Of a stretch of DNA of 64,000 bases, positions 9,346 through 60,475 are shown one piece after another. The notes under the pieces are model-generated. The model made no database searches and was not told where the DNA came from. It saw nothing but the letters and a program-made list of their open reading frames with translations. This stretch comes from an uncultured Candidatus Binatia bacterium (GTDB lineage Bacteria; Desulfobacterota; Binatia; Bin18), in assembly GCA_965214605.1 (NCBI GenBank), contig OZ243961.1, positions 1,103,008 through 1,167,007 of the forward strand, read 5' to 3'. How positions within the stretch are numbered: position 1 is the stretch's first letter; every line of letters begins with the position of its first letter. The position numbers were made by a program, and so were the translations under genes.

Positions 9346-10347
9346 ATGGCGGATCAGCTACAACATGATTTGCTGCCACGGGCGAGCCACGATGAGCTCG
9401 CACGACAAAACTTTGTGCAAAGTCTGAAATTACACCTGGCAACAAAAATCGCCCCGGGCAATGAGCTTGTTTATGAAAAGCGGGCCAAACCCCGCTTTCA
9501 ACAACAGACAGGACGTCCGCCCAAAGACCGCCACGAAGTTCGCCGGAGCATGCGAGACGAGCCGTATTATCAGGCCTGGGGCTCACTGCAACGGACCAGT
9601 CAGGAGATGATGTGGGAGGCGGTCGACTCAAGCGTTGCGCGCCAGCTGCCTGAGCTTGTTGTGCGTGCCAGTCACAACGCCAAGCCCCTGGGCTCCTTAC
9701 GTCTCGATCCGGATCTTGCCATCCCAACCTATCACACGGCAGTCGATATTCACTGCCAACCCGGCGGCTATCATACTGAGTGCGGTCCGCAGGATGATGT
9801 GGCGGCTGGAGCGCTCTACGATCGCGCCGTCCATATCTACGCCATGAGCCGTCTGGGGACATTGAATGACGAGATGGGACAGTCGGTCGTGGTGTATTTG
9901 CAGCACCGCTATCCGGATTGCCGACCCACCCGAATCCTTGACATGGGCTGCACGGTTGGCCACAGCACGCTCCCCTATGTCGATGCCTATCCAGCGGCCC
10001 AGGTTTTTGCCATTGACGTGGGCGCGCCGGTGCTCCGCTACGCTCATGCCCGGGCTGAAGCGCTGGGCAAATGTGTTCATTTTTCGCAGCAAAACGCTGA
10101 ACGGACCACGTTTGCCGAAGCATCGTTTGACCTCATTGTGTCGCATATTTTGCTACACGAAACGTCGAGCAAGGCGCTCCGTAACATCGTTCGAGAAAGC
10201 TATAGGCTGCTCACTCCGGGCGGTCTGATGATCCACCAGGAGGTCTCCCAGTATCACGGCTTAGACCCCTACCAAGCCTTCATCCTTGATTGGGACACGT
10301 ACAACAATAACGACCGTTCTGGGGGACTCTGCGTGACACAGATCTGA
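9346..10347 (+). CDS. Class I SAM-dependent methyltransferase
   Basis: Motif I ILDMGCTVGHST and downstream acidic-loop and motif IV-like segments (FDLIVSHILLHE, LLTPGGLMI). Confidence 0.75.
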   Translation: MADQLQHDLLPRASHDELARQNFVQSLKLHLATKIAPGNELVYEKRAKPRFQQQTGRPPKDRHEVRRSMRDEPYYQAWGSLQRTSQEMMWEAVDSSVARQLPELVVRASHNAKPLGSLRLDPDLAIPTYHTAVDIHCQPGGYHTECGPQDDVAAGALYDRAVHIYAMSRLGTLNDEMGQSVVVYLQHRYPDCRPTRILDMGCTVGHSTLPYVDAYPAAQVFAIDVGAPVLRYAHARAEALGKCVHFSQQNAERTTFAEASFDLIVSHILLHETSSKALRNIVRESYRLLTPGGLMIHQEVSQYHGLDPYQAFILDWDTYNNNDRSGGLCVTQI

Positions 10348-10523
10348 CCGCGATTGCTGTTGAAGCCGGCTTTGCCAAAGAGCAGGTCGTTGAGACGATG
10401 ATTCCGAGCGCCTTCCAGGTCAAAGGGCGCGCCCGACGTCTCCAGGCCGGCGACTTTGGCGGCAGCGGACAATGGTTCATCTTTGCTGCTACCAAATAGT
10501 ACCAGGCTGCGGGGAAAAGAACG

Positions 10524-10856
10524 ATGACACGGACAGCCAAGGGCCAGCGTCCAGCCTTTTTTGACGACCCGCAGATTGACAAGCTGTTAGCGATAATCAT
10601 GGCTCTGGCCGGAGAAGTGAGCGTACTGCGGGAGCGGCTCGATACGGTCGAAAGACTGCTCGAGGCCGAAGGCCTCGTATCTCGTCGCAATATTGAAACC
10701 TACCGAGCGGACGCCGCCGCGGCTGTGGAACGAGAACGCTGGCGGGGAGAATATCTGGAGCGGATTCTGCGGGTTCTCCACCAAGAGCGGGAGACGATAG
10801 CAGACAGCAAAACGCTCCCATCCCACGAACGGGCGGTTCGCACCGGAACTTTGTAA
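10524..10856 (+). CDS. Hypothetical small helical protein
   Basis: Protein-like ORF of 110 aa with no recognisable domain. Confidence 0.35.
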   Translation: MTRTAKGQRPAFFDDPQIDKLLAIIMALAGEVSVLRERLDTVERLLEAEGLVSRRNIETYRADAAAAVERERWRGEYLERILRVLHQERETIADSKTLPSHERAVRTGTL

Positions 10857-11517
10857 GAGCCAAGAGCGCAGTTTTGGCCTTTAACTTTCAGGATTTTCCC
10901 AATGTCTTTGATTCTCGGTGTTGACCTTGTCGGCACGTCGGCACATACACAAAGGCCATTTTTCGGCATCTCGCCCATCCTGACAGAAGGATGTCATCGA
11001 CCGACATCAGCATCCAGAATCGAGGTAATGCGCTATTTTTCCTTGATTTTCGAATAGCGACGAGGCGTGCATTGTCGTCTCCGATGCGCTTCAACGCGCC
11101 TGAGTTTCAGTCCGGTCGCTTGCGGTATGCTACGGTTCCATCCCCACCTGAAACAGGAACATTTACAGTTGACCAGGCACGGCGTCAGGCGGCGCTCGCC
11201 ATCGCCCGCATCAAGTACGTCGCGGAGCACCTGCCCAACGTCGGGGTAACCTTCGACAAGTTTCCTGTCGTCGCCCACGCATCGGGGCGCTCGACAAAAC
11301 ACAGCGCATCGGGCAGCGCCTCAACCCGAACTCAAGGACATGCGGTGGACCCTGCTGGGGATCCCGGAAGCCTCGGTTCCGAACACAGTATTGCCTTCTG
11401 CAACCTTATCGACTATAGTAGCCGGCGACCCAGCGAACCTACGTTACCAACCCGCCATTCTTCGGGCAGCCAAGTTTCTGTGGCGGCAAGAATATCGTCG
11501 AGCGAGGGCGGCACACC

Positions 11518-12067
11518 CATGCGAATACGCCACTACTCCATAACGAAACGCCTCGTCTTCGTTGGGCCGTTTCTGTATGTGCTCGTGCTGGCGACGGCAT
11601 CCCTCACGGGGCGGGGAGAAATCTACCCCTTCTTTGCCTGGGACTTGTTCGCGGGGGTGCCGGCGGGGTGGGTCATCCAGACGCCCGCCGTGGTGGCGCA
11701 TCCGATGGACGACTCCCGAAATTTAGGGGGGGGGGGGGGACGCTGGGTCATTCCGTCCCCCGACCCCCGGCATTTGAAGGTGCTGCGCGAGGTCCTGCAC
11801 GCGTGTGAGCGCCGCGCGGCCCCCGCGTGCCGGTCCGCCGTGGCCCGCCTGCTGCTCCCCCTCGTCGTTGACGGCGTGGGGAGCGGCGCCGTGGAGTTCA
11901 GTCTCGTCTGGGCGGCCGTCGATCTGCGCGCCCTCCGGGAGGACATCTGGGCGCTCGCCGCCGGCCGCACGCAGCGCATGGACTATGCCCGGGTCGCTAC
12001 GGTGCTCTCGCGGTGGCGCGCGGCCGCGGCCGGCGGCCTGCACCGGGTTGATGGGGGCACCCCGTGA
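11518..12067 (+). CDS. Hypothetical protein, first gene of the high-GC cassette. Contains a poly-Gly stretch encoded by a 14-G run. The start is uncertain, because the ORF is open back to 10991.
   Basis: An abrupt GC jump begins near the ATG at 11518 (MRIRHYSITKRLVFVGPFLYVLVLATA...). An N-terminal transmembrane helix is present. The stop overlaps the GTG start of the downstream gene (GTGA). Confidence 0.35.
11726..11739. repeat. 14-bp poly-G homopolymer
   Basis: Read directly from the sequence: G x14, encoding GGGGG inside the 11518-12067 ORF. Confidence 0.9.
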
Positions 12068-13416
12068 ACGCTGCGCGGCTGCAGGGCCGGCTCCGCAAGA
12101 CCCTCCTCCACGTGGAGACGGGGGAGCGGCGGCGCGCGGCCGACTTCTCGCGGGCCGCGCGCCACATCGCCGTGCTGGTCCGGTTCTATTACATCTTCGT
12201 CGCGTACCTCCTCTTCGGCCGGTTCAAGGTTGCGAATTTGCTCCACGGCATTCCCCCGCCCGCGCCGTTGTGGCCCCTGGACCTGATGGCGACAGTCGCG
12301 GGCTCCGCGTGGCTCGCGTGGGGCGAGCTCCTCACGGCGGCGGGCGTGGGGGTGGCGCTGCTGGCGGCGCTGTGTCCGGGCGTGCTGCTCTTCCGGCTTG
12401 GGGTCTTCGTCTATCTCTTCATCGGCATCGCGCTGGCCAACTCCTATGGCGCCATCAGCCATGGGCGCCATCTCTTCCTCTATGTCTCCTTCGGGTTGTT
12501 GTGGCTGCCGGCGGCCATCGGCCGCCCGGAGCGCATGGCGCGCCGGGAGGCGATGGCGTGCAACGCGGCCTTCTGGCTGACACAGGCACTGCTGCTGCTG
12601 CCCTACAGCCTCAGCGGCTTCTGGACACTCTGGCGCAGCAACCTCCAGTTGGTGTCCCTCGACTCCTTCGTCCGGCTGGTCCTCGCCGGCCTGCTCGAAC
12701 AGGCCGGCGGGCCCCTCCCGCCGCTGGTCCCGTGGCTCGCCCAGTACCCCTCGGTCGGCCAGGGCTTGTATCTGGCGTTTTGCTATGTGGAAGGGCTGCT
12801 GCTCGTCAGTCTGTTCCGCCCCCACTTGCAGCGAGGGTTCGGCCTGGTCGTCATCGGGTTCCATCTCGGGACGCGGTGGCTGCTCGGCTTTGCCGCCGCT
12901 CCCTACCTCGTGCTCTGGTTCCTCTTCCTGGTGGCTTCGCCGTTCGCCGCGGCCCGGTTCTCCCCGGTCGCCACGGCGCGCTCGCTGCCGCTCCTCGGCC
13001 TCCCCTTCCGCGCGTGGGCGCGCTGGAGGCGCCCGGAGAAAGGGGCGGAGAAGGCGTGGCTGGTGTATGATGGCGAGTGCCCGTTCTGTTCGCGTTACTC
13101 ACGCATGGTCGATGTGAGAGATGCCATCGGCGAACTCATACTCGTGAACGCCCGCGATGGGGGGCCGATCGTGGACGAGATCAAGGCCCTGCCTTGGGAT
13201 CTCAACAGGGGCATGGTACTGAAACTGAACGGACGATACCGGTTTGGCGACGAGGCCCTGCACACCTTGGCGCTCCTGTCGCGGAAGAATGGCGCATTCG
13301 GCATCCTGAACCGTCTCGTGCTCGGTTCGCGCGCGGTCGCATGGTTCGCATACCCGCTGTTGAAGCTCTGCAGGAGGCTGGCGCTGATGGCGAAAAGGGT
13401 TCCGGTCCTGAAGTAG
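12064..13416 (+). CDS. Polytopic membrane protein (HTTM-like domain) fused to a C-terminal DCC-family thiol-disulfide oxidoreductase domain (DUF393)
   Basis: Multiple predicted transmembrane helices in the N-terminal 300 aa. The C-terminal WLVYDGECPFCSRYSRMVD carries the DGxCxxC signature of the DCC/DUF393 family. In Pfam architectures this domain commonly co-occurs with the HTTM (vitamin-K-carboxylase-like) domain. Confidence 0.6.
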   Translation: MNAARLQGRLRKTLLHVETGERRRAADFSRAARHIAVLVRFYYIFVAYLLFGRFKVANLLHGIPPPAPLWPLDLMATVAGSAWLAWGELLTAAGVGVALLAALCPGVLLFRLGVFVYLFIGIALANSYGAISHGRHLFLYVSFGLLWLPAAIGRPERMARREAMACNAAFWLTQALLLLPYSLSGFWTLWRSNLQLVSLDSFVRLVLAGLLEQAGGPLPPLVPWLAQYPSVGQGLYLAFCYVEGLLLVSLFRPHLQRGFGLVVIGFHLGTRWLLGFAAAPYLVLWFLFLVASPFAAARFSPVATARSLPLLGLPFRAWARWRRPEKGAEKAWLVYDGECPFCSRYSRMVDVRDAIGELILVNARDGGPIVDEIKALPWDLNRGMVLKLNGRYRFGDEALHTLALLSRKNGAFGILNRLVLGSRAVAWFAYPLLKLCRRLALMAKRVPVLK

Positions 13417-14111
13417 GAAACTCTTCGTAACGTTCACCTTCGCGACGGGGATCACCGACGCTACTGCTTGATGACGAAACCTTCATCAAGCGGGGAGATG
13501 CAGCGAATGCTGGCGGAGGGCATTGCGTCCGAGGACCGGCGGATTGTCGATCTGACGGTGCTGGATCTAAACGTTCAGTCGCCGCAGCACGGTCCCGACC
13601 TTCGGTGGGTGCAGGCTCACCCGTGGAGCTCAACCCGCCCCATCGCCGAGGTCCGTGCCCTACAGCGAGTATTGATTTCATGTCACGCCCAGGTCCGATT
13701 TCGCCCGGAGGACGTTTGGGAATAACCTCGGGGCGGAATGAATGGTTGGTGAAAGCCATGGAGAATTATATTGAGATTGCGCCTTAGGTTCACGGTCGGT
13801 CCCCGTTGATGGCCGTGGGCCGTCACAAGCGGGAAGAGGCGCAGGAATGGTTGGCGGCGTGTTTCCGGTGTCCGGCGTATTCGCTAGGCTGGCGTCGGTC
13901 GGGGCGGGTCTGCAACCGTTCCGGATGATCGATGGGAGGGGGCAAAAGGACCTGACGCCGCCCTCAACCGGCGTCAAGCCGGTGAAAGAATCGTCATCGA
14001 GAACCGCCGTGCGCTCGACGACAACGCATGGCGGCGAGCGTTACCAGCCTCTTGCGGGACCTCAATTCGATTGTGTATGATGACACCGACACGGTCACCC
14101 GTACGGCCCGA

Positions 14112-14147
14112 CCGAACAGTCACCAGAATCGTAACTGTTCGGTGACC
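14112..14147. promoter_or_regulatory. Inverted repeats, candidate operator, upstream of the hydantoinase-like operon
   Basis: A perfect 9-bp inverted repeat CCGAACAGT-N13-ACTGTTCGG is interleaved with GTCACC/GGTGAC, about 140 bp upstream of the 14281 start. An AT-rich stretch with TTGCAA and TAGAAT hexamers follows at 14225-14243. Confidence 0.3.
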
Positions 14148-14280
14148 TGTATGTGGAGAACGCAGACATGCACAGTTACGATGTTGATCGAATCCGCTTG
14201 CGGAATGCTTACGCTAACGGAAGTTTGCAAATGTTACTAGAATTTTTGTTCTTTTAAAAGAATAATGAAAACAATCTGTT

Positions 14281-16341
14281 ATGAGCTTCACAGGATCCGA
14301 TTACCGCATCGGAGTTGACGTAGGCGGCACCTTTACAGACCTGCTACTTTTTGACCAACAAACCGGCCACCAGGTCAGGGCCAAGACCCCCTCGACTCCA
14401 GACGATCCGTCGGTCGGCGTGCTGGCAGGGATTGATAAGATCTGTCGGGCGGCCCAGATCCCTGCGGCCCAGATCACCCACATTATGCATGGCACGACCG
14501 TAGCAACCAACGCAGTCCTGGAAGGCAAGGGTGCCCGGGTCGGCCTGATTACAACCGAGGGGTTCAAGCAGATCCTGCACCTGGCCCGCTCGTGGACGCC
14601 GGGTCCGCTGGCAGGCTGGATTACTATGGAGAAGCCCGATCCGCCTGCCGCAATTGAGTACACCCGAGAGGCTAAGGAGCGGATCGACACCCACGGCAAT
14701 ATTGTCACCCCGCTCGACGAGGATGCGCTGCGAGACGCGCTAGACGACTTGGTCGGTCAAGCTATTGAAGCCCTCACCATCTCCCTGATTAACTCGTATA
14801 CCAATCAGATTCACGAAAAGCGGATTAAAGCCATTGCCCAGGAACTCTATCCCGATCTGCCGGTCACTGCTTCCTCTGAGGTTCTACCCGAGTTCCGTGA
14901 GTATGAGCGCACCCTGACCGCGGTGATGAACTCCTATGTCCGCCCTACCGTTTCGGTCTATTTACGGAATTTCGCCGATCAGTTGATTGATCACGGGCTA
15001 CGCGCAGAGGTGAATATCCTGCGCTCCGACGCGGGTCTGATGACCTTACGCATGGCCCAAGAACGGCCGGTGTACGCCGTCATGTCGGGTCCGGCCGGTG
15101 GGGTTGCAGGAGCGCTGTTTACCGCCACCACAGCCGGCTTTGGTAATATTCTCACCCTGGATATGGGCGGGACCTCAACCGACGTCGCGCTGTGTCAGAA
15201 CGGCACGCAGACTATCGCCCGCGAGACAACACTGGGCTATTTTCCAATCAAAGTTCCCTCGGTTGATGTACGCAGCATTGGGGCTGGGGGTGGCTCGATT
15301 GCCCATGTGCCGGAGATTACGAATGCTCTGCGGGTTGGTCCGCAGAGCGCAGGGGCAGAGCCGGGGCCGGCGTGTTACGGTCGGGGCGGAACCCAACCAA
15401 CGGTGACAGACGCTAATCTTGTGCTCGGCCATCTGCCCCCTCGACTGCTAGGCGGTGAGATGCGTCTGGACGAAGAGGCCGCGCACGCTGCGGTTGAGAG
15501 CGTAGGCCGCAAACTTGGTTTAGACGTCTATCGGGCCGCGCAGGGCATTGTGGATATTGTCAATGAGAACATACATGGCGCGTTACGCCTGGTCTCAGTG
15601 CAACGCGGCTATGACCCGCGCAATTTTGCACTCGTGGCTTTTGGTGGTGCAGGTCCCCTCCACGCCAACGCGGTGGCCAGCCTAATTGGCTCATTCCCTC
15701 TCATCATCCCCCCCGCACCCGGGATACTATGTGCCACCGGCGATGTGTGTTCCGACTACCGTGAAGAGTTCGCTCGGACCGTACTGCGGACCCTGGACCA
15801 GCTGCCGGCGGCTGAGGTTAAACAGTTGCTCCAGGAACTCGGCAGCGAGGCCGCCGGCTGGCTTGAGCGCGAGGGCATTCCCCGCTCCCAGCAGGACATA
15901 TTCTATAACGCCGACATGCGCTATTTCCGCCAAGGCTACGAGCTGCCGATCGTCATTACGCTCGAAGACTTACAGGCACAGGGGATCGGCATCCTAGCCG
16001 ACCGCTTCCACGCTTTGCACGAACAGTTGTACCGCTTTCGGCTCGACGCGGAGTGCGAAATCGTCAACCTGCGGGCCGTGGCTCTGGGTAAAGGGGCGCG
16101 CTTCAGCCTGAACGCAGCGGACCTCGACGGCCCGGACGCGGCCCATGCCCAAACCGACGAGCACCGGACTTATTTTGACGGCAATTTTCTGCCCACACCA
16201 ATCTATGATCGGTTCAAGCTCAGACCCGGTAACCGGCTCACCGGCCCAGCCATCGTTACTGAAATGGACTCGACCACCGTCGTCCTGCCGCACTGTACGG
16301 CTGAGGTCGATCGCTACGCCAATATTTTGGTTCGACCGTAG
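14281..16341 (+). CDS. Hydantoinase/oxoprolinase A-family protein (HyuA / acetone-carboxylase-beta-like)
   Basis: N-terminal YRIGVDVGGTFTDLLL (ASKHA-fold phosphate-1), DMGGTSTDVAL, and a length of about 686 aa, typical of the Hydantoinase_A family. Confidence 0.85.
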   Translation: MSFTGSDYRIGVDVGGTFTDLLLFDQQTGHQVRAKTPSTPDDPSVGVLAGIDKICRAAQIPAAQITHIMHGTTVATNAVLEGKGARVGLITTEGFKQILHLARSWTPGPLAGWITMEKPDPPAAIEYTREAKERIDTHGNIVTPLDEDALRDALDDLVGQAIEALTISLINSYTNQIHEKRIKAIAQELYPDLPVTASSEVLPEFREYERTLTAVMNSYVRPTVSVYLRNFADQLIDHGLRAEVNILRSDAGLMTLRMAQERPVYAVMSGPAGGVAGALFTATTAGFGNILTLDMGGTSTDVALCQNGTQTIARETTLGYFPIKVPSVDVRSIGAGGGSIAHVPEITNALRVGPQSAGAEPGPACYGRGGTQPTVTDANLVLGHLPPRLLGGEMRLDEEAAHAAVESVGRKLGLDVYRAAQGIVDIVNENIHGALRLVSVQRGYDPRNFALVAFGGAGPLHANAVASLIGSFPLIIPPAPGILCATGDVCSDYREEFARTVLRTLDQLPAAEVKQLLQELGSEAAGWLEREGIPRSQQDIFYNADMRYFRQGYELPIVITLEDLQAQGIGILADRFHALHEQLYRFRLDAECEIVNLRAVALGKGARFSLNAADLDGPDAAHAQTDEHRTYFDGNFLPTPIYDRFKLRPGNRLTGPAIVTEMDSTTVVLPHCTAEVDRYANILVRP

Positions 16342-16704
16342 ACGTGGCGGGAGGAAAGCAAGCTAGAGCATGGATGAACAGTCCCTCGACCTTGCTCAAC
16401 GAGCAGTCATCGCCTTGGCAACGGTGCCAAAGCCTGAAAAGCCTGAGATGTCTCCCGGTGACTGAGTAGCCCTGAGAGTCGGCATGTCCCACGGTTTGCT
16501 CATTGTCTGGGGCTTCTGTAAGGTGCATACTAGAGAGTGGAGAATGACTAGACGTTCGCGCAACGCAAGAAAGAAAAGTAGGCACTCTATCCACCCGGTA
16601 TGACCTGCACGTGGTCGAGTTGACAGACAGCGAGTTCCAGAACCTTGACGACAACCTAGTGCAGCCCCTGCTCCTCTTCGGCATCAATTGCACCTGACAC
16701 ATCT

Positions 16705-17400
16705 ATGACAGTAGCCTCCCCCCTTCTCCCCGACCCAATAGCCAAGCTGGTCGCTGGCGCCTTAGCCTTCCGCCAGGACGAATACGGAGCTGGCAGCAGC
16801 CTCATGCCCCGTTTGGCCGCTGGCCAGCAGCCCCACGTCCTGATGATTGGATGCAGCGACTCGCGCGTTGATCCGGCCCTACTCTGCGGTACAAGGCCTG
16901 GCGATCTATTCGTTGTTCGCAATGTCGCTAACCTAGTGCCGGCCTATGACCAGCGCGACAGCCTGGGCCAGGGGGTGCGCGCAGCTCTCGAATATGGCGT
17001 GAAAGCGCTGAAGGTTTCACACATCGTCGTGCTCGGCCACTCCCACTGCGGCGGCATCCGGGTCCTGATTGATACAGCCCGAGGCAGAGCGCCTGCATTT
17101 GAATGTATCGGCCCATGGCTCAGCCTGGCCGGCGATGTCTGCGACCGAGTGTTGAAGCAGCTGGCCGCGGATTCCTCAAAACATGTGACCACAGAGCAGC
17201 TGCCAACCTACGCTCCGCTGGTCGAGCGCCAAGCCGTCCTGCACTCTCTTCACAACCTCCGCACTTATCCCTGGATCAGCACCAGAATCGCCAGCGAGAC
17301 ATTGAGCCTACACGGCTGGTGGTTTGATCTCGATTCCGGGCGGCTATGGACGACCCAAGCGCCGGCTTCGGACAAGCTCACCCTGCTTGAGGCCGAGTGA
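16705..17400 (+). CDS. Beta-class carbonic anhydrase
   Basis: Zinc-ligand motifs CSDSR and HSHCGG(I), typical of beta-carbonic anhydrases. Confidence 0.85.
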   Translation: MTVASPLLPDPIAKLVAGALAFRQDEYGAGSSLMPRLAAGQQPHVLMIGCSDSRVDPALLCGTRPGDLFVVRNVANLVPAYDQRDSLGQGVRAALEYGVKALKVSHIVVLGHSHCGGIRVLIDTARGRAPAFECIGPWLSLAGDVCDRVLKQLAADSSKHVTTEQLPTYAPLVERQAVLHSLHNLRTYPWISTRIASETLSLHGWWFDLDSGRLWTTQAPASDKLTLLEAE

Positions 17401-17480
17401 ATGAGTCCCTGGCCGTCGGCTTTTCTCTAAGCGCCCTATCTGGTAGCTGAAGGGGAGAGTTGGCAGAGAGGAGCACAACT

Positions 17481-19370
17481 ATGCGCGACGTGAACATCGC
17501 TACTATTCCAGACCTTGAGGTTGACCCGGTAACGCTCGACATCATTGAGAGTGCGCTCAAGAACTATCGCTACGAAATGGACGCGGTGCTGTACCGTACC
17601 GCCATGTCGCCCGTTATTCGGGAACAGCACGACGAGTTTCCGATGATTTGCGACCCCAACGGTCGGATGGTCGTCGGCCAGTTCGGCTCGTATATCCGGG
17701 AGATGATGGACGGCTTCGACCGTCCAATCTACCCCGGCGATGTTATCCTGCTCAACGACCCCTATCTGTGCGGCGGAGCGATCTCGCATATCAACGATTT
17801 TTTGGTTTTAGTCCCGATCTTTGACGGCGATGAGCTAATCGGCTGGACGTCGATGTTTGGCCACCAAATGGATGTCGGTGGCCCTCTGCCCGGCTCTTTT
17901 CCGACCAACGCCACCTCCATTTTTGGCGAGGGGCTGCGTATCCCACCGGTCAAGCTGTTTGAGAAGGGCGCCCTGAACGAGGATATCTTGCATTTGATTC
18001 TCAACAATGTGCGCATCCCGATCATGAACCGCTCCGATCTGATGGGCATTGTGGCCGGCTGCAAAACCGCCGAGCAGAGAGTCACAGAGCTGTGTGAGCG
18101 GTTTGGCCGCGACACGTATTTGGCTGCTTGTCAGGCCCTGCTCGACCGCACCCGGCGAGCCATGCAGACGCTCATCAAGCGCAATATTTCGACCGAACCG
18201 CAGTCTTTTGAGGACTATGTTGACGACGACGGGCTAGGCAACGGACCGTTCAAAATGAAACTCACTATTTGGCGTGAAGAGGAGAAAGTCGTCTTCGACT
18301 GGACCGGCACAGACCCGCAGGCGGCCGGGCCGATTAACTTCTACCTGAACGAAGGTATGTTCAAAATGTTCATCGGCGTCTACCTGATCATGGTCTATGA
18401 CCCGCAGATTCTGTTCAACGACGGCTTTTATGATCTGATTGAGGCGCGCTTGCCCGACGGCTCCCTGCTCCACCCCAAGTTTCCAGCGGCCCTCGGCTGC
18501 CGCACCCACGCCCTAGCTCGGCTGTTTGACGTGATGAGCGGTTGCCTCGGCCAGAAGAGCCCCGAGCTGACCACCGCGGCTGGCTACGGCACCAGCCCCC
18601 ACCTGCTGTATAGCGGAACCGACAAAAAGGGGGAGTTTTTCTTTATTATGGAGATCAGCTACGGCGGCATCCCGGGCCGACCGGTCGGCGACGGCATAGA
18701 CGGCCATTCGTGGTGGCCGCTGTTCACCAATATTCCGACTGAGTATTTGGAGAGCTACTGCCCACTGCGGATTGATCGTTACGCCTCGGTGATGGATTCC
18801 GGCGGAGCCGGCCTGCACCGCGGAGGCAATGGCATAGATAAATGGTATACTTTTCTAGAACCCGGTGAGATCGCCATTCATGACGATCGTTGGTTGACCC
18901 CGCCGTGGGGGATCTTGGGCGGCAAGCCGGGCATGCGGTCCAAAAAAATCCTGATTCGTACAGATGGCAGCCAAGAAGTCTTGCCCTCGAAGTGCGATCA
19001 AATCAAAGTTGAGTCAGGTGACCAACTGATCTACCAGACAGCTGGCGCCGGAGGTTGGGGAGACCCGCTGAAGCGAGCGGCAGAGAAAGTGCGCAGCGAT
19101 GTGGTGCGGGATCTGGTGTCTGTTGACAAGGCGCGGCGCGAGTACGGTGTTGTGCTTGATCCAGACACCGCTCAGGTCGATCAAGACGCCACCGGTCAGC
19201 TGCGTGAACAGCTGGCCCAAAAGCGGGACGAGCAGCCCACCTTTGACTTCGGTCCCCCATTGCCCGAGTTGCTTGCTCGTTGCAAACAAGAAACCGGTTT
19301 GGAGCCGCCGACTCCGCCGAGCCTGCCGGACAACTGGGCCGTCAATGGAGCCAAGAAACGGGCGGCCTGA
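17481..19370 (+). CDS. Hydantoinase B / oxoprolinase-family protein (HyuB / acetone-carboxylase-alpha-like)
   Basis: Typical Hydantoinase_B N-terminus (DPVTLDIIESALKNYRYEMDAVLYRTAMSPVIRE). The ATG at 17481 follows a GAGAGGAG ribosome-binding site, so the listed TTG start at 17460 is probably not used. Confidence 0.85.
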   Translation: MRDVNIATIPDLEVDPVTLDIIESALKNYRYEMDAVLYRTAMSPVIREQHDEFPMICDPNGRMVVGQFGSYIREMMDGFDRPIYPGDVILLNDPYLCGGAISHINDFLVLVPIFDGDELIGWTSMFGHQMDVGGPLPGSFPTNATSIFGEGLRIPPVKLFEKGALNEDILHLILNNVRIPIMNRSDLMGIVAGCKTAEQRVTELCERFGRDTYLAACQALLDRTRRAMQTLIKRNISTEPQSFEDYVDDDGLGNGPFKMKLTIWREEEKVVFDWTGTDPQAAGPINFYLNEGMFKMFIGVYLIMVYDPQILFNDGFYDLIEARLPDGSLLHPKFPAALGCRTHALARLFDVMSGCLGQKSPELTTAAGYGTSPHLLYSGTDKKGEFFFIMEISYGGIPGRPVGDGIDGHSWWPLFTNIPTEYLESYCPLRIDRYASVMDSGGAGLHRGGNGIDKWYTFLEPGEIAIHDDRWLTPPWGILGGKPGMRSKKILIRTDGSQEVLPSKCDQIKVESGDQLIYQTAGAGGWGDPLKRAAEKVRSDVVRDLVSVDKARREYGVVLDPDTAQVDQDATGQLREQLAQKRDEQPTFDFGPPLPELLARCKQETGLEPPTPPSLPDNWAVNGAKKRAA

Positions 19371-46108: not shown

Positions 46109-47656
46109 CTAACACAGTTCTGCTTTCTCCGGCAATGGGCTGACCACACACTGACACACCGAACGCGTTGTCGGCGTGACCAGGGCGGTTTTCCCCCGGA
46201 CATAACCGGGCACCCATGCCACTTCAGAATCATCATCTCCCAAAACGACCAAGGGAAAAATCAGACGCAGACGGCGCGGCAGCTTAGCATCACTAAATAC
46301 ATTGTAAACTTTCTTTCGGCCAGCCATGCCTAGAGGAAAAATACGATCTCCGGGCCGCACACTGCGCACCCGAAGGCCTGACGACACCAGCGCGGCGTCA
46401 AAGAACGTCCGCCACGGATCGGCCGTTCGCGCCTGGGCGGGTGTAGCCTGCCACGCGATCGGCTCGCTCAGCCAACACTGCCAGCCGCTGCCGGGTATGT
46501 GGGGGATAGCGGGCAGTCCCAGCCTTTGCCCGCATGAGAGGAGGTAGGTGTAGGATTCAGAGGTAAAACGCTTTGGTTCAGCAATAAGACAGTCCTGTTC
46601 AACCCGGACCTGGAGACTGCCGGGCAGTTCAACAGTGCCCCGAACCCGCCCTTCGGCCAAGGCCCGAACCTGTTCAAGGTGAATAAAGCCAAGGTGGTGG
46701 CCAATGAGTTCGAGCCACTGGCGTAAAATCCGGACGCGCAGGGCGACAGGCTCAGTCGCCCAGGCGCGGACGCGCAGGCCGGGCATGCCGTCCCGCTTAT
46801 ACTGAACGCGCAGTCGGGCCGCCGTTGTCGCGGTTTCGAGCCAAGCCTCTTCTTCGCGTAAGGTATCGGCCAGATGGGCCAAATGACGAGAGATGCGAGG
46901 CGAGAACTCGGTCGCCAGCAGGGGCAACAGGCGGTGTCGAATGCGGTTGCGAGCATAACCGAGATCGGCGTTACTGGGATCGGTCACATAAGACAACCGG
47001 CGGTCGGTCAGATACTCCAAGACTTCCTGCCGGCTGCAGTCCAGCAGCGGACGAATGAGCCGCTTGTCTCCCTGCGTTCCGATCGTGCGACTTGGCGGAA
47101 TACCGCTTAGGCCGCGCCGGGCACTGCCCCGCAGGAGCCGAAACAGCACGGTTTCGGCCTGATCGTCCCGGGTGTGGGCCAGAGCTAGATAGTCCAGCCC
47201 TTCTTGCTCCATCACCGCTTCAAAAAATTGATAGCGCGCGTTGCGCGCCCAGGCTTCAACGCCGTGAGGGGGGGGGGAGAAGTCCAGTTTCTTTATAAAG
47301 CAGGGCAGCTGCCACAGCCGACACAGCCGTTCAACATATCGCTGTTCGTGGTCGGCTTCCGGCCGCAGCCCATGGTTGACGTGGAGTACGCTGAGGTGTG
47401 AGGGGACACTGCTCGGCTGGGCTAGCAGGGCGCTCAACAAGGCGACAGAGTCTGGTCCACCCGAAACCCCGACTCCGAGACGAACGACCTGGTTGCCCGG
47501 CCCAGCCTGTCCTGGGGAAGAAAAAAACCGCCTCAGAGCAGTCTCGACTTTACGTTCGAGCGGCAAAACCCCTCCCTTTTTTCCCCCTGAACGGGGGCTT
47601 TGACCTTCCATACGTCTACCGTACGGCCCCTTGTGACGTTGCGGGAACCTTGGCAT
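46109..47656 (-). CDS. tilS: tRNA(Ile)-lysidine synthetase
   Basis: PP-loop [11 protein letters not shown] and a TilS C-terminal substrate-binding domain. The exact start is uncertain. It contains a 10-bp C run (coding strand) that encodes PPP. Confidence 0.8.
47268..47277. repeat. 10-bp poly-G homopolymer (poly-C on the tilS coding strand)
   Basis: Read directly from the sequence. It encodes the PPP in ...FSPPPHG of TilS. Confidence 0.9.
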
Positions 47657-55412: not shown

Positions 55413-56648
55413 TTGCATCCCGGCCAGGCCATGACGACGAGACAAGATAGAAGCTCTCTCACTCTCCAAAGCCTGTTGCTTGCCGTCTGCCTAGTCCTGT
55501 CGACCGTTCCGGGCTTCTCGTCTCCACCCCCCGGTGTCAGCCTCATCGAGGGCAGTCTGACCCCTTTTTTTCACAATCGGCCCCTTTCGGCCTTTCGGGT
55601 CTACGCATTCCACGGCCACACTCCGCACCCGATTCCGTTTCAGATCGACGAACGGGACCAACGAGAGCGCTGGATTGTGAGGCACGGTTCAAAAGCCAAG
55701 CAGGACAGCCCTGCCGCGGTGTTTGACGCCAACGACGCCATTGTGGTGATGAACCGCGACCTGGGGCAGCGTGGCGACCCGTCCGTTCTTCCGGACCAGG
55801 CCAAGCGCTGGGCCGAGATCCGGGTCGGAGAAGAGACGAACCGGCTGGGTTTTGTCTATGTCGGGGTCTTTCCCCCAACACACACCCCACCACGCATCAC
55901 CCAGCCTTACGCCCGCTACGACCCGGCCACCGACCGGATCTATGCCGAGCGCTACGCCCTGGCCTTTGACGCGCCACTGCCAACCCATTTTGCTCCGGTT
56001 GAGCGGCTCGGCCACTTTGGGACCAATACTATAACCGGAGTCAAAGCCGGCGCCGAGGTCCGCTTGCTAGGCGGTTTGCTACGCTTCCAGCGTACCGAGG
56101 TCGATCTACGCAGCAGCTTGCGTGGCTACCAGTCCGGCCCGGTTCGGGTAATCCGCCAGGCGCGCTACTGGGTGCCGCTGCCGTTTGGCCTGCGCACCTC
56201 GGGCAAGGTCAATCTCATTTTCTACCGGGACTTTGTTGAGGGCAGCGCACGGATCAAGCTGAAAATCCCGCCCCGCCTCGTGCTGGCGGAGGGCGAATTC
56301 ACGACCTATTTTGACTTTCTGGACCTGCGCGGGGCGCGTCCGCTGCTGAATGGCCGCCTGAGCCGCTGGGCGGCACTGTGCCTACCGAGCGGCCGGACAC
56401 TTGTTCTTATTCCCCGGCTTGAGGACGGCTTGAGCAGGCTTGAGCAGCGCGTCTATTACGGTGGCGCTCAGCCCCATTTCGGCTTTCAGTTTTCGGAAAT
56501 TGGTCGTCTGGAGAGCGGCTCGCATCGCCTATCGGTTTTCGGCCTGCTGCTCGACACGACCGCCCCGGACACGGTTCAGCGGGCCGCCGATATCTTTCTC
56601 TCCCCCCCCCAAGTGGCCGCGCAGCTACTCAATGCCCAGCTGGACTAG
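55413..56648 (+). CDS. Hypothetical secreted protein
   Basis: Signal peptide LTLQSLLLAVCLVLSTVPGFSS. Beta-rich composition. Contains a 9-C homopolymer encoding SPPQ. No known motif. Confidence 0.45.
   Translation: MHPGQAMTTRQDRSSLTLQSLLLAVCLVLSTVPGFSSPPPGVSLIEGSLTPFFHNRPLSAFRVYAFHGHTPHPIPFQIDERDQRERWIVRHGSKAKQDSPAAVFDANDAIVVMNRDLGQRGDPSVLPDQAKRWAEIRVGEETNRLGFVYVGVFPPTHTPPRITQPYARYDPATDRIYAERYALAFDAPLPTHFAPVERLGHFGTNTITGVKAGAEVRLLGGLLRFQRTEVDLRSSLRGYQSGPVRVIRQARYWVPLPFGLRTSGKVNLIFYRDFVEGSARIKLKIPPRLVLAEGEFTTYFDFLDLRGARPLLNGRLSRWAALCLPSGRTLVLIPRLEDGLSRLEQRVYYGGAQPHFGFQFSEIGRLESGSHRLSVFGLLLDTTAPDTVQRAADIFLSPPQVAAQLLNAQLD
56602..56610. repeat. 9-bp poly-C homopolymer
   Basis: Read directly from the sequence. 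It lies within the 3' end of the 55413-56648 ORF (…FLSPPQ…). Confidence 0.9.
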
Positions 56649-60464: not shown

Positions 60465-60475
60465 GGGGGGGGGGG
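60465..60475. repeat. 11-bp poly-G homopolymer, intergenic
   Basis: Read directly from the sequence. It lies in a region about 600 bp long with no convincing gene. Confidence 0.9.

What the first reader, a model, noticed from the sequence alone, without database searches (positions are those of the whole stretch)
10860..14280. Compositional island: a very-high-GC, roughly 1.9 kb two-gene cassette (HTTM-like membrane domain fused to a DCC redox domain) flanked by low-GC gene-poor DNA
GC content, estimated by eye, jumps from about 50-55% (10860-11517, no convincing gene) to about 70-75% across 11518-13416. It then drops again over about 860 bp (13417-14280) that has no convincing ORF. The high-GC block encodes two genes with overlapping stop and start (GTGA). 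The first is a small hypothetical protein with a transmembrane helix. The second is a polytopic membrane domain fused to a C-terminal DGECPFC thiol-disulfide oxidoreductase domain (DCC/DUF393). An HTTM-plus-DCC architecture suggests a membrane-embedded redox or carboxylase-like activity on an unknown substrate. The sharp compositional boundaries suggest horizontal acquisition. A perfect 8-9 bp hairpin (GCTTGATGA-CGAAACC-TCATCAAGC, 13465-13489) follows the cassette.
Basis: partly seen in the sequence, partly recalled or inferred. Interest (0 to 1): 0.6.

Follow-up and report, generated by a model that had tools for sequence, protein, structure and literature searches.

The report
Imported GGCX-like membrane redox gene pair
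A 3.4 kb stretch inserted into an otherwise conserved operon carries two foreign, very GC-rich genes for an uncharacterised membrane enzyme that distantly resembles the vitamin K-dependent carboxylase and is fused to a thiol-redox domain; the same gene pair occurs in bacteria of at least six phyla, many of them sponge symbionts.

Summary
Positions 11600-13250 are 69.7% GC, against 58.6±1.8% for the window. GC3 of the two genes is 0.86 and 0.88, against 0.66±0.04 for 50 other ORFs. The flanks are near the window average, not low-GC.

Relatives keep methyltransferase, orf110 and hydantoinase A adjacent, with about 60-190 bp between the last two. The window has 3,424 bp there, so 10857-14280 is an insertion. 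Two independent short-read contigs confirm both junctions.

Only 11460-13460 matches a foreign cassette: 77.6% DNA identity to a Bryobacterales MAG.

Gene 1 (11519-12067) encodes a single-pass protein with no Pfam family. It lies directly upstream of gene 2's relative in about 60 loci and is fused to it in one protein.

Gene 2 (12064-13416) has a Pfam DCC1-like domain. Its 320-residue membrane domain has no Pfam HTTM hit. Human GGCX is nevertheless the only meaningful fold match, and a profile alignment (P 0.024) places the family's near-invariant Lys on GGCX's catalytic K218. The window's copy alone has Thr there.

Verdict: a real horizontally acquired island carrying a remote, Pfam-invisible variant of the uncharacterised HTTM+DCC1-like/DUF5819 module. 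Its biochemical function is inferred, not shown.

The parts
10857..14280 (.). Inserted island, 3,424 bp, lying between orf110 and hydantoinase A.
   Evidence: In relatives L083, L087, L130 and L161, orf110 and hydA are about 60-190 bp apart, and none of 80 related loci has gene 1 or gene 2. Both junctions are verified in independent contigs L082 and L165.
11460..13460 (+). Core transferred block, with DNA homology to the cassette of a Bryobacterales MAG.
   Evidence: blastn gives 77.6% identity over 2016 bp to L001/L002, and 86.7% over window 12927-13444 to L051. The flanks have no homolog in any related locus.
11391..11419 (+). Sigma-70-like promoter candidate (TTGCCT-17-TATAGT), about 100 nt upstream of gene 1.
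   Evidence: Consensus scan found 1 site against 0.6±0.9 expected, so it is not significant; only the position is suggestive.
11504..11508 (+). Shine-Dalgarno-like GAGGG, 10 nt before the gene 1 ATG.
   Evidence: Read directly from the sequence.
11519..12067 (+). Gene 1: a 182-aa single-pass membrane protein. It has a TM helix at residues 5-29, then the motif E-I-Y-P-F-F-x-W-x-L-F, and invariant K87, C96, C104 and W166.
   Evidence: Alignments A4 and A6. AF2 model with pLDDT 83.5. A homolog lies directly upstream of the gene 2 homolog in about 60 loci. No Pfam or NCBIfam hit. No fold match.
11726..11739 (+). G14 homopolymer inside gene 1. It encodes a Gly run in a variable loop.
   Evidence: Independent contig L082 has G10+C here, which frameshifts gene 1 into products of 84 and 97 aa. 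The closest homolog L002 lacks the tract.
12064..13416 (+). Gene 2: a 450-aa protein with a polytopic membrane domain fused to a DCC1-like domain. GTG start; overlaps the gene 1 stop (GTGA).
   Evidence: AF2 model with pLDDT 89.9.
12064..13023 (+). Membrane domain, residues 1-320. It belongs to no Pfam family and is a remote GGCX/HTTM-like candidate.
   Evidence: 1,056 clusters at 50% identity match at E<=1e-3. No Pfam hits. Foldseek matches GGCX with TMq 0.36-0.40 and probability 0.91-0.96. hhalign against GGCX gives P 0.024.
12625..12627 (+). Codon 188 (ACA, Thr), at the position of the family's near-invariant Lys. That Lys aligns to GGCX K218.
   Evidence: Lys in 240 of 245 relatives, Arg in 3, and Thr only in the window's own protein. 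The sequence is the same in contig L082.
13060..13377 (+). DCC1-like thiol-disulfide oxidoreductase domain, residues 333-438. The CPFC motif lies at 13078-13089.
   Evidence: Pfam PF04134, E 2.3e-8, 35.7 bits against a 27.8 cut-off. C339 and C342 are invariant in A1.
13464..13493 (+). Hairpin 48 nt after the gene 2 stop, just past the end (13460) of the DNA homology block.
   Evidence: dG -17.4 kcal/mol, z -3.1, 11-bp stem, no U-tract.
13468..13725 (+). Orphan ORF (85 aa from TTG, or 72 aa from the ATG at 13507) with codon-like GC periodicity. Status uncertain.
   Evidence: Periodicity 0.64/0.44/0.75 in this frame. No Pfam hit. The 72-aa version is called as a gene on L165.

Best explanation
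Positions 10857-14280 are a horizontally acquired insertion in a conserved methyltransferase-orf110-hydantoinase operon of a genome with about 58% GC.

Its core, 11460-13460, is a two-gene operon from a high-GC donor. The closest known copy is in a Bryobacterales MAG.

The operon encodes a two-subunit membrane enzyme. Gene 1 gives a single-pass protein; its globular domain is probably extracytoplasmic, given the positive-inside N-terminus and two invariant cysteines. [quoted passage not shown]

Inferred mechanism, by analogy with GGCX. The membrane domain binds a reduced quinone. A conserved Lys, helped by conserved His residues, deprotonates the quinone so that reaction with O2 yields a strong base or oxidant. 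That species acts on an unknown substrate presented at the membrane surface by the gene 1 subunit. The DCC domain supplies or recycles reducing equivalents.

What is shown: the composition, the insertion, the operon structure, the co-occurrence and fusion of the two families, and the DCC domain. What is inferred: the homology to GGCX, quinone use, topology, substrate and the role of DCC.

The window's copy has Thr in place of the putative catalytic Lys, and gene 1 carries a frameshift-prone G14 tract. This copy may therefore be functionally altered or switched off.
For: Island:
- GC 69.7% against 58.6±1.8%.
- GC3 0.86 and 0.88 against 0.66±0.04.
- Synteny is broken only in the window.
- Both junctions appear in independent contigs.
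- DNA homology to the Bryobacterales cassette is limited to 11460-13460.
- Homologous cassettes range from 44% to 68% GC and are compositional outliers in many hosts. About 16 of 59 loci lie 10-17 points below their flanks. High GC is therefore not intrinsic to the genes.

Functional unit:
- A gene 1 homolog sits directly upstream of the gene 2 homolog in about 60 loci from at least six phyla.
- P0190 is a natural fusion of the two.
- No other neighbour is conserved outside the Poriferisodalis clade.

GGCX relation:
- GGCX chains are the only PDB fold hits with a non-trivial TM-score and high probability.
- hhalign of a 114-sequence profile against human GGCX residues 1-319 gives P 0.024 over 154 columns. 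It aligns H136~H160, Y181/G185/K188~Y211/G215/K218, F266-H267~F286-H287 and S292-P293~S312-P313.
- K218 is the catalytic base of GGCX (PMC13486548).
- The same architecture is known where Pfam does see HTTM: an HTTM+DCC1-like protein next to a single-TM DUF5819 partner, predicted to form a GGCX-like complex (bioRxiv 10.64898/2026.08.19.745780).

DCC domain: Pfam hit above threshold and an invariant CxxC.
Against: - No Pfam HTTM/VKG_Carbox or DUF5819 hit for any of 35 gene 2 family members or 35 gene 1 family members, even at lenient thresholds.
- Foldseek E-values for GGCX are about 1, and rmsd is about 11 A.
- hhalign probability is only 2%. hmmsearch of the profile against PDB does not find GGCX.
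- The GGCX D263 partner of K218 has no conserved counterpart in the alignment.
- The gene 1 model has no fold match to the GGCX lumenal domain or to anything else.
- The DCC domain is dispensable in the family. Many homologs lack it and have no DCC gene within 6 kb.
- No integrase, transposase, tRNA or terminal repeats mark the island.
- The window's own protein lacks the putative catalytic Lys.
Confidence: 0.55

Rival explanations
1. The cassette is a decaying or inactive passenger. It was acquired recently but is no longer functional here, having lost its catalytic Lys and gained a slippage-prone G14 tract that can frameshift gene 1. It is translationally coupled to gene 2 through the GTGA overlap.
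For: K188T is unique among 245 family members. The G14 tract is absent from the closest homolog. An independent contig carries G10, which truncates gene 1. The second copy in the Bryobacterales MAG (L018) is visibly degraded.
Against: Both ORFs are intact in the window. The protein deviates at only 1 of 19 columns that are at least 90% conserved. The low-coverage (4.7x) short-read contig may simply mis-call the homopolymer.
Confidence: 0.3
2. The membrane domain is not related to HTTM/GGCX. It is an unrelated polytopic protein, such as a transporter, an acyltransferase-like protein or a lipid-modifying scaffold, and the DCC domain acts as a redox sensor or regulator.
For: No HTTM profile hit. 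Statistical support for GGCX is weak. One relative, P0204, is fused to an MGDG-synthase-like glycosyltransferase, which hints at lipid chemistry.
Against: GGCX is the only PDB fold with TMq above 0.3; all others are about 0.1. The alignment is collinear across five motifs and includes the catalytic Lys. The architecture parallels the Pfam-recognised HTTM+DCC/DUF5819 pairs.
Confidence: 0.25
3. The GC island is not foreign DNA. It reflects either an intrinsic compositional constraint of these genes or an assembly chimera.
For: Membrane proteins can have skewed amino-acid use. The window comes from a metagenome-type assembly.
Against: The signal is in GC3, not in amino-acid composition. Homologs elsewhere range from 44% to 68% GC. 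Relatives lack the insertion. Both junctions are reproduced in independent contigs.
Confidence: 0.03

Closest known systems
HTTM + DCC1-like membrane protein with an adjacent DUF5819 single-pass partner, for example Melghirimyces thermohalophilus A0A1G6IBF2/A0A1G6IAS5 (bioRxiv 10.64898/2026.08.19.745780)
   Same: The gene pair and sizes match: about 180-190 aa with an N-terminal TM helix plus a globular domain, next to about 450 aa with a polytopic domain plus a C-terminal DCC1-like domain. The two genes are adjacent. The pair is predicted to be GGCX-like. Neither has been characterised experimentally.
   Different: In the window's family neither the membrane domain nor the partner is recognised by Pfam HTTM or DUF5819. 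No sequence-level link to that pair was found. The window's family is centred on uncultured, largely sponge-associated lineages.
[quoted passage not shown]
   Same: It is the only meaningful fold match. The family's Y-x3-G-x2-K, NH..H, FH and SP motifs align collinearly with GGCX Y211/G215/K218, H160, F286-H287 and S312-P313.
   Different: There is no lumenal carboxylase or propeptide-binding domain in the same chain. There is no significant sequence-profile hit. The D263 counterpart is not conserved. A DCC domain is fused, which GGCX lacks. The window's copy has Thr at the K218-equivalent position.
Truncated GGCX-like 'vitamin K epoxidase' domains of giant viruses, fused or adjacent to sterol desaturase and VKOR (PMC13486548)
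   Same: An epoxidase-only domain of about 300 residues retains the catalytic Lys and is paired with a thiol-based redox partner and with lipid-modifying enzymes. Compare relative P0204, which is fused to a glycosyltransferase.
   Different: The redox partner differs (VKOR against DCC1-like). The hosts differ. No homology between the two was tested directly.
Stand-alone DCC1-like/DUF393 proteins (PF04134), for example on Nitratireductor, Sinorhizobium and Novosphingobium plasmids
   Same: The C-terminal 120 residues are 40-45% identical, and the CxxC motif is shared.
   Different: Those proteins are soluble, have about 150 aa, carry no fused membrane domain and sit in unrelated neighbourhoods.

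Membership tests
DCC1-like thiol-disulfide oxidoreductase (Pfam PF04134 / DUF393) | Profile match above Pfam's gathering score. | tested here: met
   35.7 bits against 27.8; residues 333-438 cover profile positions 1-108 of 113. All 25 aligned relatives also match.
DCC1-like thiol-disulfide oxidoreductase (Pfam PF04134 / DUF393) | N-terminal D-x-x-C-x-x-C redox motif. | tested here: met
   YDGECPFC is present; D336, C339 and C342 are invariant in A1.
HTTM / VKG_Carbox (Pfam PF05090; SMART HTTM) | Sequence-profile match to the HTTM domain. | tested here: not met
   No hit at E<=0.1-1 for the window protein, 24 close relatives or 10 distant relatives. Precomputed Pfam lists only PF04134.
HTTM / VKG_Carbox (Pfam PF05090; SMART HTTM) | Fold similarity to the GGCX transmembrane (epoxidase) domain. 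| tested here: inconclusive
HTTM / VKG_Carbox (Pfam PF05090; SMART HTTM) | Catalytic Lys (GGCX K218) and His (H160) equivalents. | tested here: inconclusive
   At family level, K188 (240 of 245) and H136 align to K218 and H160 at hhalign P 0.024. In the window's own protein residue 188 is Thr, so the Lys is not present there.
DUF5819 (single-pass partner of HTTM+DCC proteins) | Profile match to DUF5819. | tested here: not met
   No Pfam hit for gene 1 or 34 homologs at E<=10. Precomputed Pfam is '-' for all 55 clusters.
DUF5819 (single-pass partner of HTTM+DCC proteins) | Architecture and context: an N-terminal TM helix plus a domain of about 150 aa, encoded next to the polytopic protein. | tested here: met
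   TM helix at residues 5-29 followed by an alpha/beta domain. Adjacent upstream in about 60 loci. Natural fusion P0190.
Horizontally acquired genomic island | Atypical composition relative to the host genome. | tested here: met
   GC z of about 6 and GC3 z of about 5-6.
Horizontally acquired genomic island | Interrupts synteny that is conserved in relatives. | tested here: met
   orf110 and hydA are contiguous in L083, L087, L130 and L161. The cassette is absent from 80 related loci.
Horizontally acquired genomic island | Mobility hallmarks: integrase or transposase, a tRNA target, flanking repeats. | tested here: not met
   No tRNA near the island. Only chance-level repeats. No family hit for flank ORFs. 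No plasmid or phage carrier.

The most novel reading that the evidence does not exclude
The cassette encodes a previously unrecognised bacterial branch of the vitamin K-dependent carboxylase/epoxidase superfamily that works as a self-contained quinone redox machine. It would comprise an HTTM-like epoxidase domain, a built-in DCC thiol reductase and a separate extracytoplasmic substrate-presenting subunit. It would be exchanged horizontally among phylogenetically unrelated members of sponge microbiomes as an adaptive module. In this lineage it would be under on/off control by a poly-G contingency tract.
Probability: 0.15. Interest if true: 0.75.

Novelty: new variant of a known kind. Interest (0 to 1): 0.5.

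Why it matters
Bacterial relatives of the vitamin K-dependent carboxylase are numerous, but almost none has a known substrate. The HTTM+DCC1-like/DUF5819 pairing was noticed only recently, and only by structure prediction.

This cassette extends that module to a large family that current domain libraries do not see: about 1,000 clusters at 50% identity. The family has a strict two-gene core and a natural fusion between the two partners.

Its distribution suggests repeated horizontal exchange. It is found in at least six phyla, many hosts belong to sponge-associated lineages, and the cassette is often compositionally foreign to its host.

If the quinone-dependent chemistry is real, it would be a new membrane modification system relevant to symbiont biology. 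The naturally occurring Lys-to-Thr variant and the poly-G tract offer ready-made tests of function and regulation.

As an example of HGT alone, the finding is clean but ordinary.

Tried and rejected
- Searching the large protein database with gene 1 alone found nothing. Its 90% cluster is represented by a 97-aa fragment. Searching with an alignment of locus-derived homologs worked.
- Foldseek of the gene 1 model gave no meaningful hit.
- hmmsearch of the family profiles against PDB sequences did not retrieve GGCX.
- Rfam and tRNA scans found nothing in or near the island.
- The terminator and promoter scans were at chance level.
- Terminal direct or inverted repeats were sought. Only chance-level pairs appeared, for example a 15-nt 14/15 match at 11117 and 14195, with about 0.3 expected.
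- The flanks 10400-11518 and 13417-14280 have no DNA or translated similarity to any related locus and are not repeated in the window. Their ORFs have no Pfam hits.
- Plasmid and phage collections hold no copy of the membrane domain. The neighbourhoods of plasmid-borne stand-alone DCC genes were uninformative.
- Simple hydropathy did not resolve the topology of gene 2.
- A GGCX D263 equivalent could not be identified.
- The source organism of the window could not be named.
Full report
**1. Observation**

Sliding-window composition shows a plateau of 66-76% GC from about 11600 to 13250, in a window whose 1-kb bins otherwise run 54-63%. Positions 11600-13250 are 69.7% GC. The 1650-bp windows outside the island average 58.6% (sd 1.8, maximum 63.9).

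Third-codon-position GC is the proper test. It gives 0.857 for gene 1 and 0.880 for gene 2, with 0.916 in the membrane part and 0.782 in the DCC part. The other 50 ORFs of the window average 0.661±0.037, with a maximum of 0.737. The island is therefore real, and it is not an amino-acid-composition effect.

The flanks are not low-GC. They lie at about the window mean, and only 14201-14300 is AT-rich. The upstream flank has no codon periodicity. The stretch 13417-13800 does show periodicity in the frame of gene 2, corresponding to an orphan ORF at 13468-13725 with no family hit.

The two genes overlap by GTGA. Gene 1 runs 11519-12067 and gene 2 runs 12064-13416.

The hairpin is real: stem at 13464-13474/13483-13493, dG -17.4 kcal/mol, z -3.1. 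It has no U-tract.

**2. It is an insertion, and not an artefact**

A metagenome scan with the upstream methyltransferase (9346-10347) returned 80 loci.

- 71 of them carry a homolog of the 110-aa ORF (10524-10856) next to the methyltransferase.
- In L083, L087, L130 and L161 hydantoinase A follows that ORF after only about 60-190 bp. L083, L087 and L130 are three of the four loci with the most similar methyltransferase; L161 is more distant.
- L130 also has the next gene, at 86% identity.
- None of the 80 loci has gene 1 or gene 2.

The window has 3,424 bp between these two genes. The whole reader-defined interval is therefore an insertion. The relatives have 55-60% GC, like the window.

Two independent short-read contigs from sample ERZ21849000 reproduce both junctions. 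L082 matches window 10308-12955 at 99.6% and L165 matches window 12975-15244 at 99.8%. This excludes a chimeric assembly.

DNA similarity to any foreign cassette is confined to 11460-13460. It is 77.6% to a Bryobacterales MAG, whose own cassette is about 67% GC in flanks of about 65% GC. The 3' 518 bp are 86.7% identical to a contig-end fragment of a Rhodospirillaceae MAG.

The roughly 600-bp and 820-bp arms of the insertion are orphan sequence. No tRNA, integrase, transposase or convincing terminal repeats were found.

**3. The cassette is a conserved two-gene unit**

Gene 2 has about 100 clusters (at 90% identity) of full-length relatives with 40-72% identity. All carry PF04134 as their only Pfam domain.

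A scan of one genome per species found 156 relatives. The 80 kept include loci from the following groups:

- Bryobacterales, Vicinamibacterales and Terriglobia
- Pseudomonadales and other Gammaproteobacteria
- Dehalococcoidia and Caldilineaceae
- Acidimicrobiia, including many Ca. Poriferisodalis and Ca. Aldehydirespirator
- Pedosphaera
- Latescibacterota

Poriferisodalaceae and Aldehydirespiratoraceae are sponge-associated families (PMC11706023). I could not check sample metadata for the other MAGs.

A gene 1 homolog lies directly upstream in essentially every locus that has the membrane domain. Outside the Poriferisodalis clade, where wider synteny indicates vertical inheritance, no other neighbour is conserved.

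One protein, P0190, is a natural fusion of a gene 1-like N-terminus with the membrane domain.

The DCC domain is an accessory. Many homologs of about 330 aa lack it and have no DCC gene within 6 kb, yet they keep gene 1.

The membrane domain family is large: 1,056 clusters at 50% identity at E<=1e-3.

Across 59 loci the cassette's GC ranges from 44% to 68%. It often departs strongly from its flanks, usually downward: about 16 loci lie 10-17 points below. A neighbour-joining tree partly follows taxonomy but has cross-phylum placements. The window's copy is sister to the Bryobacterales copy. Together these results indicate repeated horizontal spread, followed by vertical inheritance within lineages.

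**4. What the proteins are**

Gene 2

The AF2 model of gene 2 is confident (pLDDT 89.9). Against PDB, all hits have TMq of about 0.1, except human GGCX chains (TMq 0.36-0.40 with the unmatched DCC domain included, probability 0.91-0.96). E-values are about 1 and rmsd about 11 A.

I verified the human GGCX 1-319 sequence against PDB chains and compared it with family profiles.

- With 18 sequences the match was insignificant (E 0.36), but K188 already aligned with K218.
- With a 114-sequence profile, hhalign gave P/E 0.024 over 154 columns. It aligned H136~H160, Y181/G185/K188~Y211/G215/K218, R257/G260~R276/G279, F266-H267~F286-H287 and S292-P293~S312-P313.

K218 is the base that deprotonates vitamin K hydroquinone (PMC13486548).

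Pfam and NCBIfam do not recognise the domain in any of 35 members tested. I therefore treat HTTM-superfamily membership as probable but not demonstrated.

Gene 1

Gene 1 has a TM helix at residues 5-29, then an invariant E-x-x-P-F-x-x-W-x-L motif. It also has an alpha/beta domain with invariant K87, C96, C104 and W166. It has no family or fold match.

Closest published parallel

A 2026 preprint describes exactly this architecture where Pfam does detect the domains. A single-TM DUF5819 protein sits next to a 447-aa HTTM+DCC1-like protein. The pair is predicted by AF3 to form a GGCX-like complex and is compared with the fused carboxylase MloH.

**5. Peculiarities of this copy**

- Residue 188 is Thr. 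Among 245 aligned family members the column is Lys in 240, Arg in 3, and Thr only in the window's own sequence.
- The codon is identical in the independent contig L082.
- The protein deviates at no other of the 19 columns that are at least 90% conserved.
- Gene 1 contains a G14 run (11726-11739). About 0.004 such runs are expected by chance in the window (my estimate from base composition).
- The run encodes a Gly insertion in a variable loop and is absent from the closest homolog.
- Contig L082 has G10 followed by C. This splits gene 1 into 84-aa and 97-aa products. At 4.7x coverage this could be a homopolymer error or real length variation.

**6. Mechanism**

Best-supported reading: a split GGCX-like membrane oxygenase. 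The polytopic domain would bind a reduced quinone and use the Lys/His pair with O2. The gene 1 subunit would cap the extracytoplasmic face and present the substrate. The DCC CxxC domain would deliver or recycle reducing power.

The steps actually shown are operon structure, co-occurrence and fusion of the two families, the DCC domain and the conservation pattern. Quinone use, topology, substrate and the role of DCC are inferred.

One relative is fused to an MGDG-synthase-like glycosyltransferase. The giant-virus GGCX-like epoxidases are linked to lipid desaturases. Both hint at a lipid or membrane-proximal substrate.

Rivals:

- This copy is inactive or decaying.
- The membrane domain is unrelated to HTTM.
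- The island is not foreign DNA. This one is effectively refuted.

**7. Verdict**

The finding is a genuine, cleanly delimited horizontal insertion. Its cargo is a remote, Pfam-invisible variant of an uncharacterised but recently noticed module. Interest is moderate: the HGT itself is ordinary, while the family, its distribution and the Lys-to-Thr and poly-G features are worth follow-up.

Noticed in passing
window 11726-11739; also 47268-47277 (G10), 56602-56610 (C9), 60465-60475 (G11): There are several long G/C homopolymers in a 64-kb window of 58.8% GC. The G14 lies inside gene 1 and differs in length (G10) in an independent assembly of the same strain. The contexts of the other three tracts were not examined.
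   Followed up: partly
window 12625-12627 (gene 2 codon 188): Thr replaces a Lys that is conserved in 240 of 245 family members (Arg in 3). This is the only deviation of the protein at highly conserved columns.
   Followed up: yes
window 13468-13725 (+): An orphan ORF in the same reading frame as gene 2 shows coding-like GC periodicity. Its start codons sit inside the hairpin. It has no family hit, and a 72-aa version is called as a gene on contig L165.
   Followed up: partly
window 9346-10347, 10524-10856 and 14281-19370; loci L083-L162: A SAM-methyltransferase and a 110-aa protein with no Pfam hit are adjacent in 71 of 80 metagenome loci. They are often next to a hydantoinase/oxoprolinase A (and a following gene). 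This looks like a conserved operon, and the small partner protein has no assigned function.
   Followed up: partly
P0204 (718 aa) and P0190 (502 aa), relatives of gene 2: P0204 fuses the membrane domain to an MGDG-synthase/GT28-like glycosyltransferase. P0190 fuses a gene 1-like N-terminus to the membrane domain.
   Followed up: partly
L003:4522-5952, L004:5018-5944, L006, L008, L011-L013, L017, L050, L060, L061: Some gene 1 homologs carry a C-terminal extension of about 130 aa with a conserved FFLH..P....DLP..R..YGFDNLDF motif. It is duplicated in L003. It belongs to no Pfam family.
   Followed up: no
L018 (Bryobacterales MAG CBDBZZ01, contig_25): A second copy of the cassette in the same MAG as the closest homolog looks degraded. 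Gene 1 is truncated to 127 aa without its TM helix, and gene 2 is broken.
   Followed up: partly
L004, L005, L009, L012, L015, L024, L052 and others: In many high-GC hosts (65-70%) the homologous cassette is a low-GC island (49-53%). This is the opposite direction to the window.
   Followed up: partly
window 13060-13416 versus 12064-13023: GC3 drops from 0.92 in the membrane part to 0.78 in the DCC part. The closest DNA relative of the DCC end (86.7%, L051) is a different MAG from the closest relative of the rest. The gene may be a recombinant mosaic.
   Followed up: no
L062-L081: Stand-alone DCC1-like genes, up to 64% identical to the window's DCC domain, also match the 25-30 residues that precede it (the SLPxxGxPFR linker). 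They have no membrane domain nearby.
   Followed up: no
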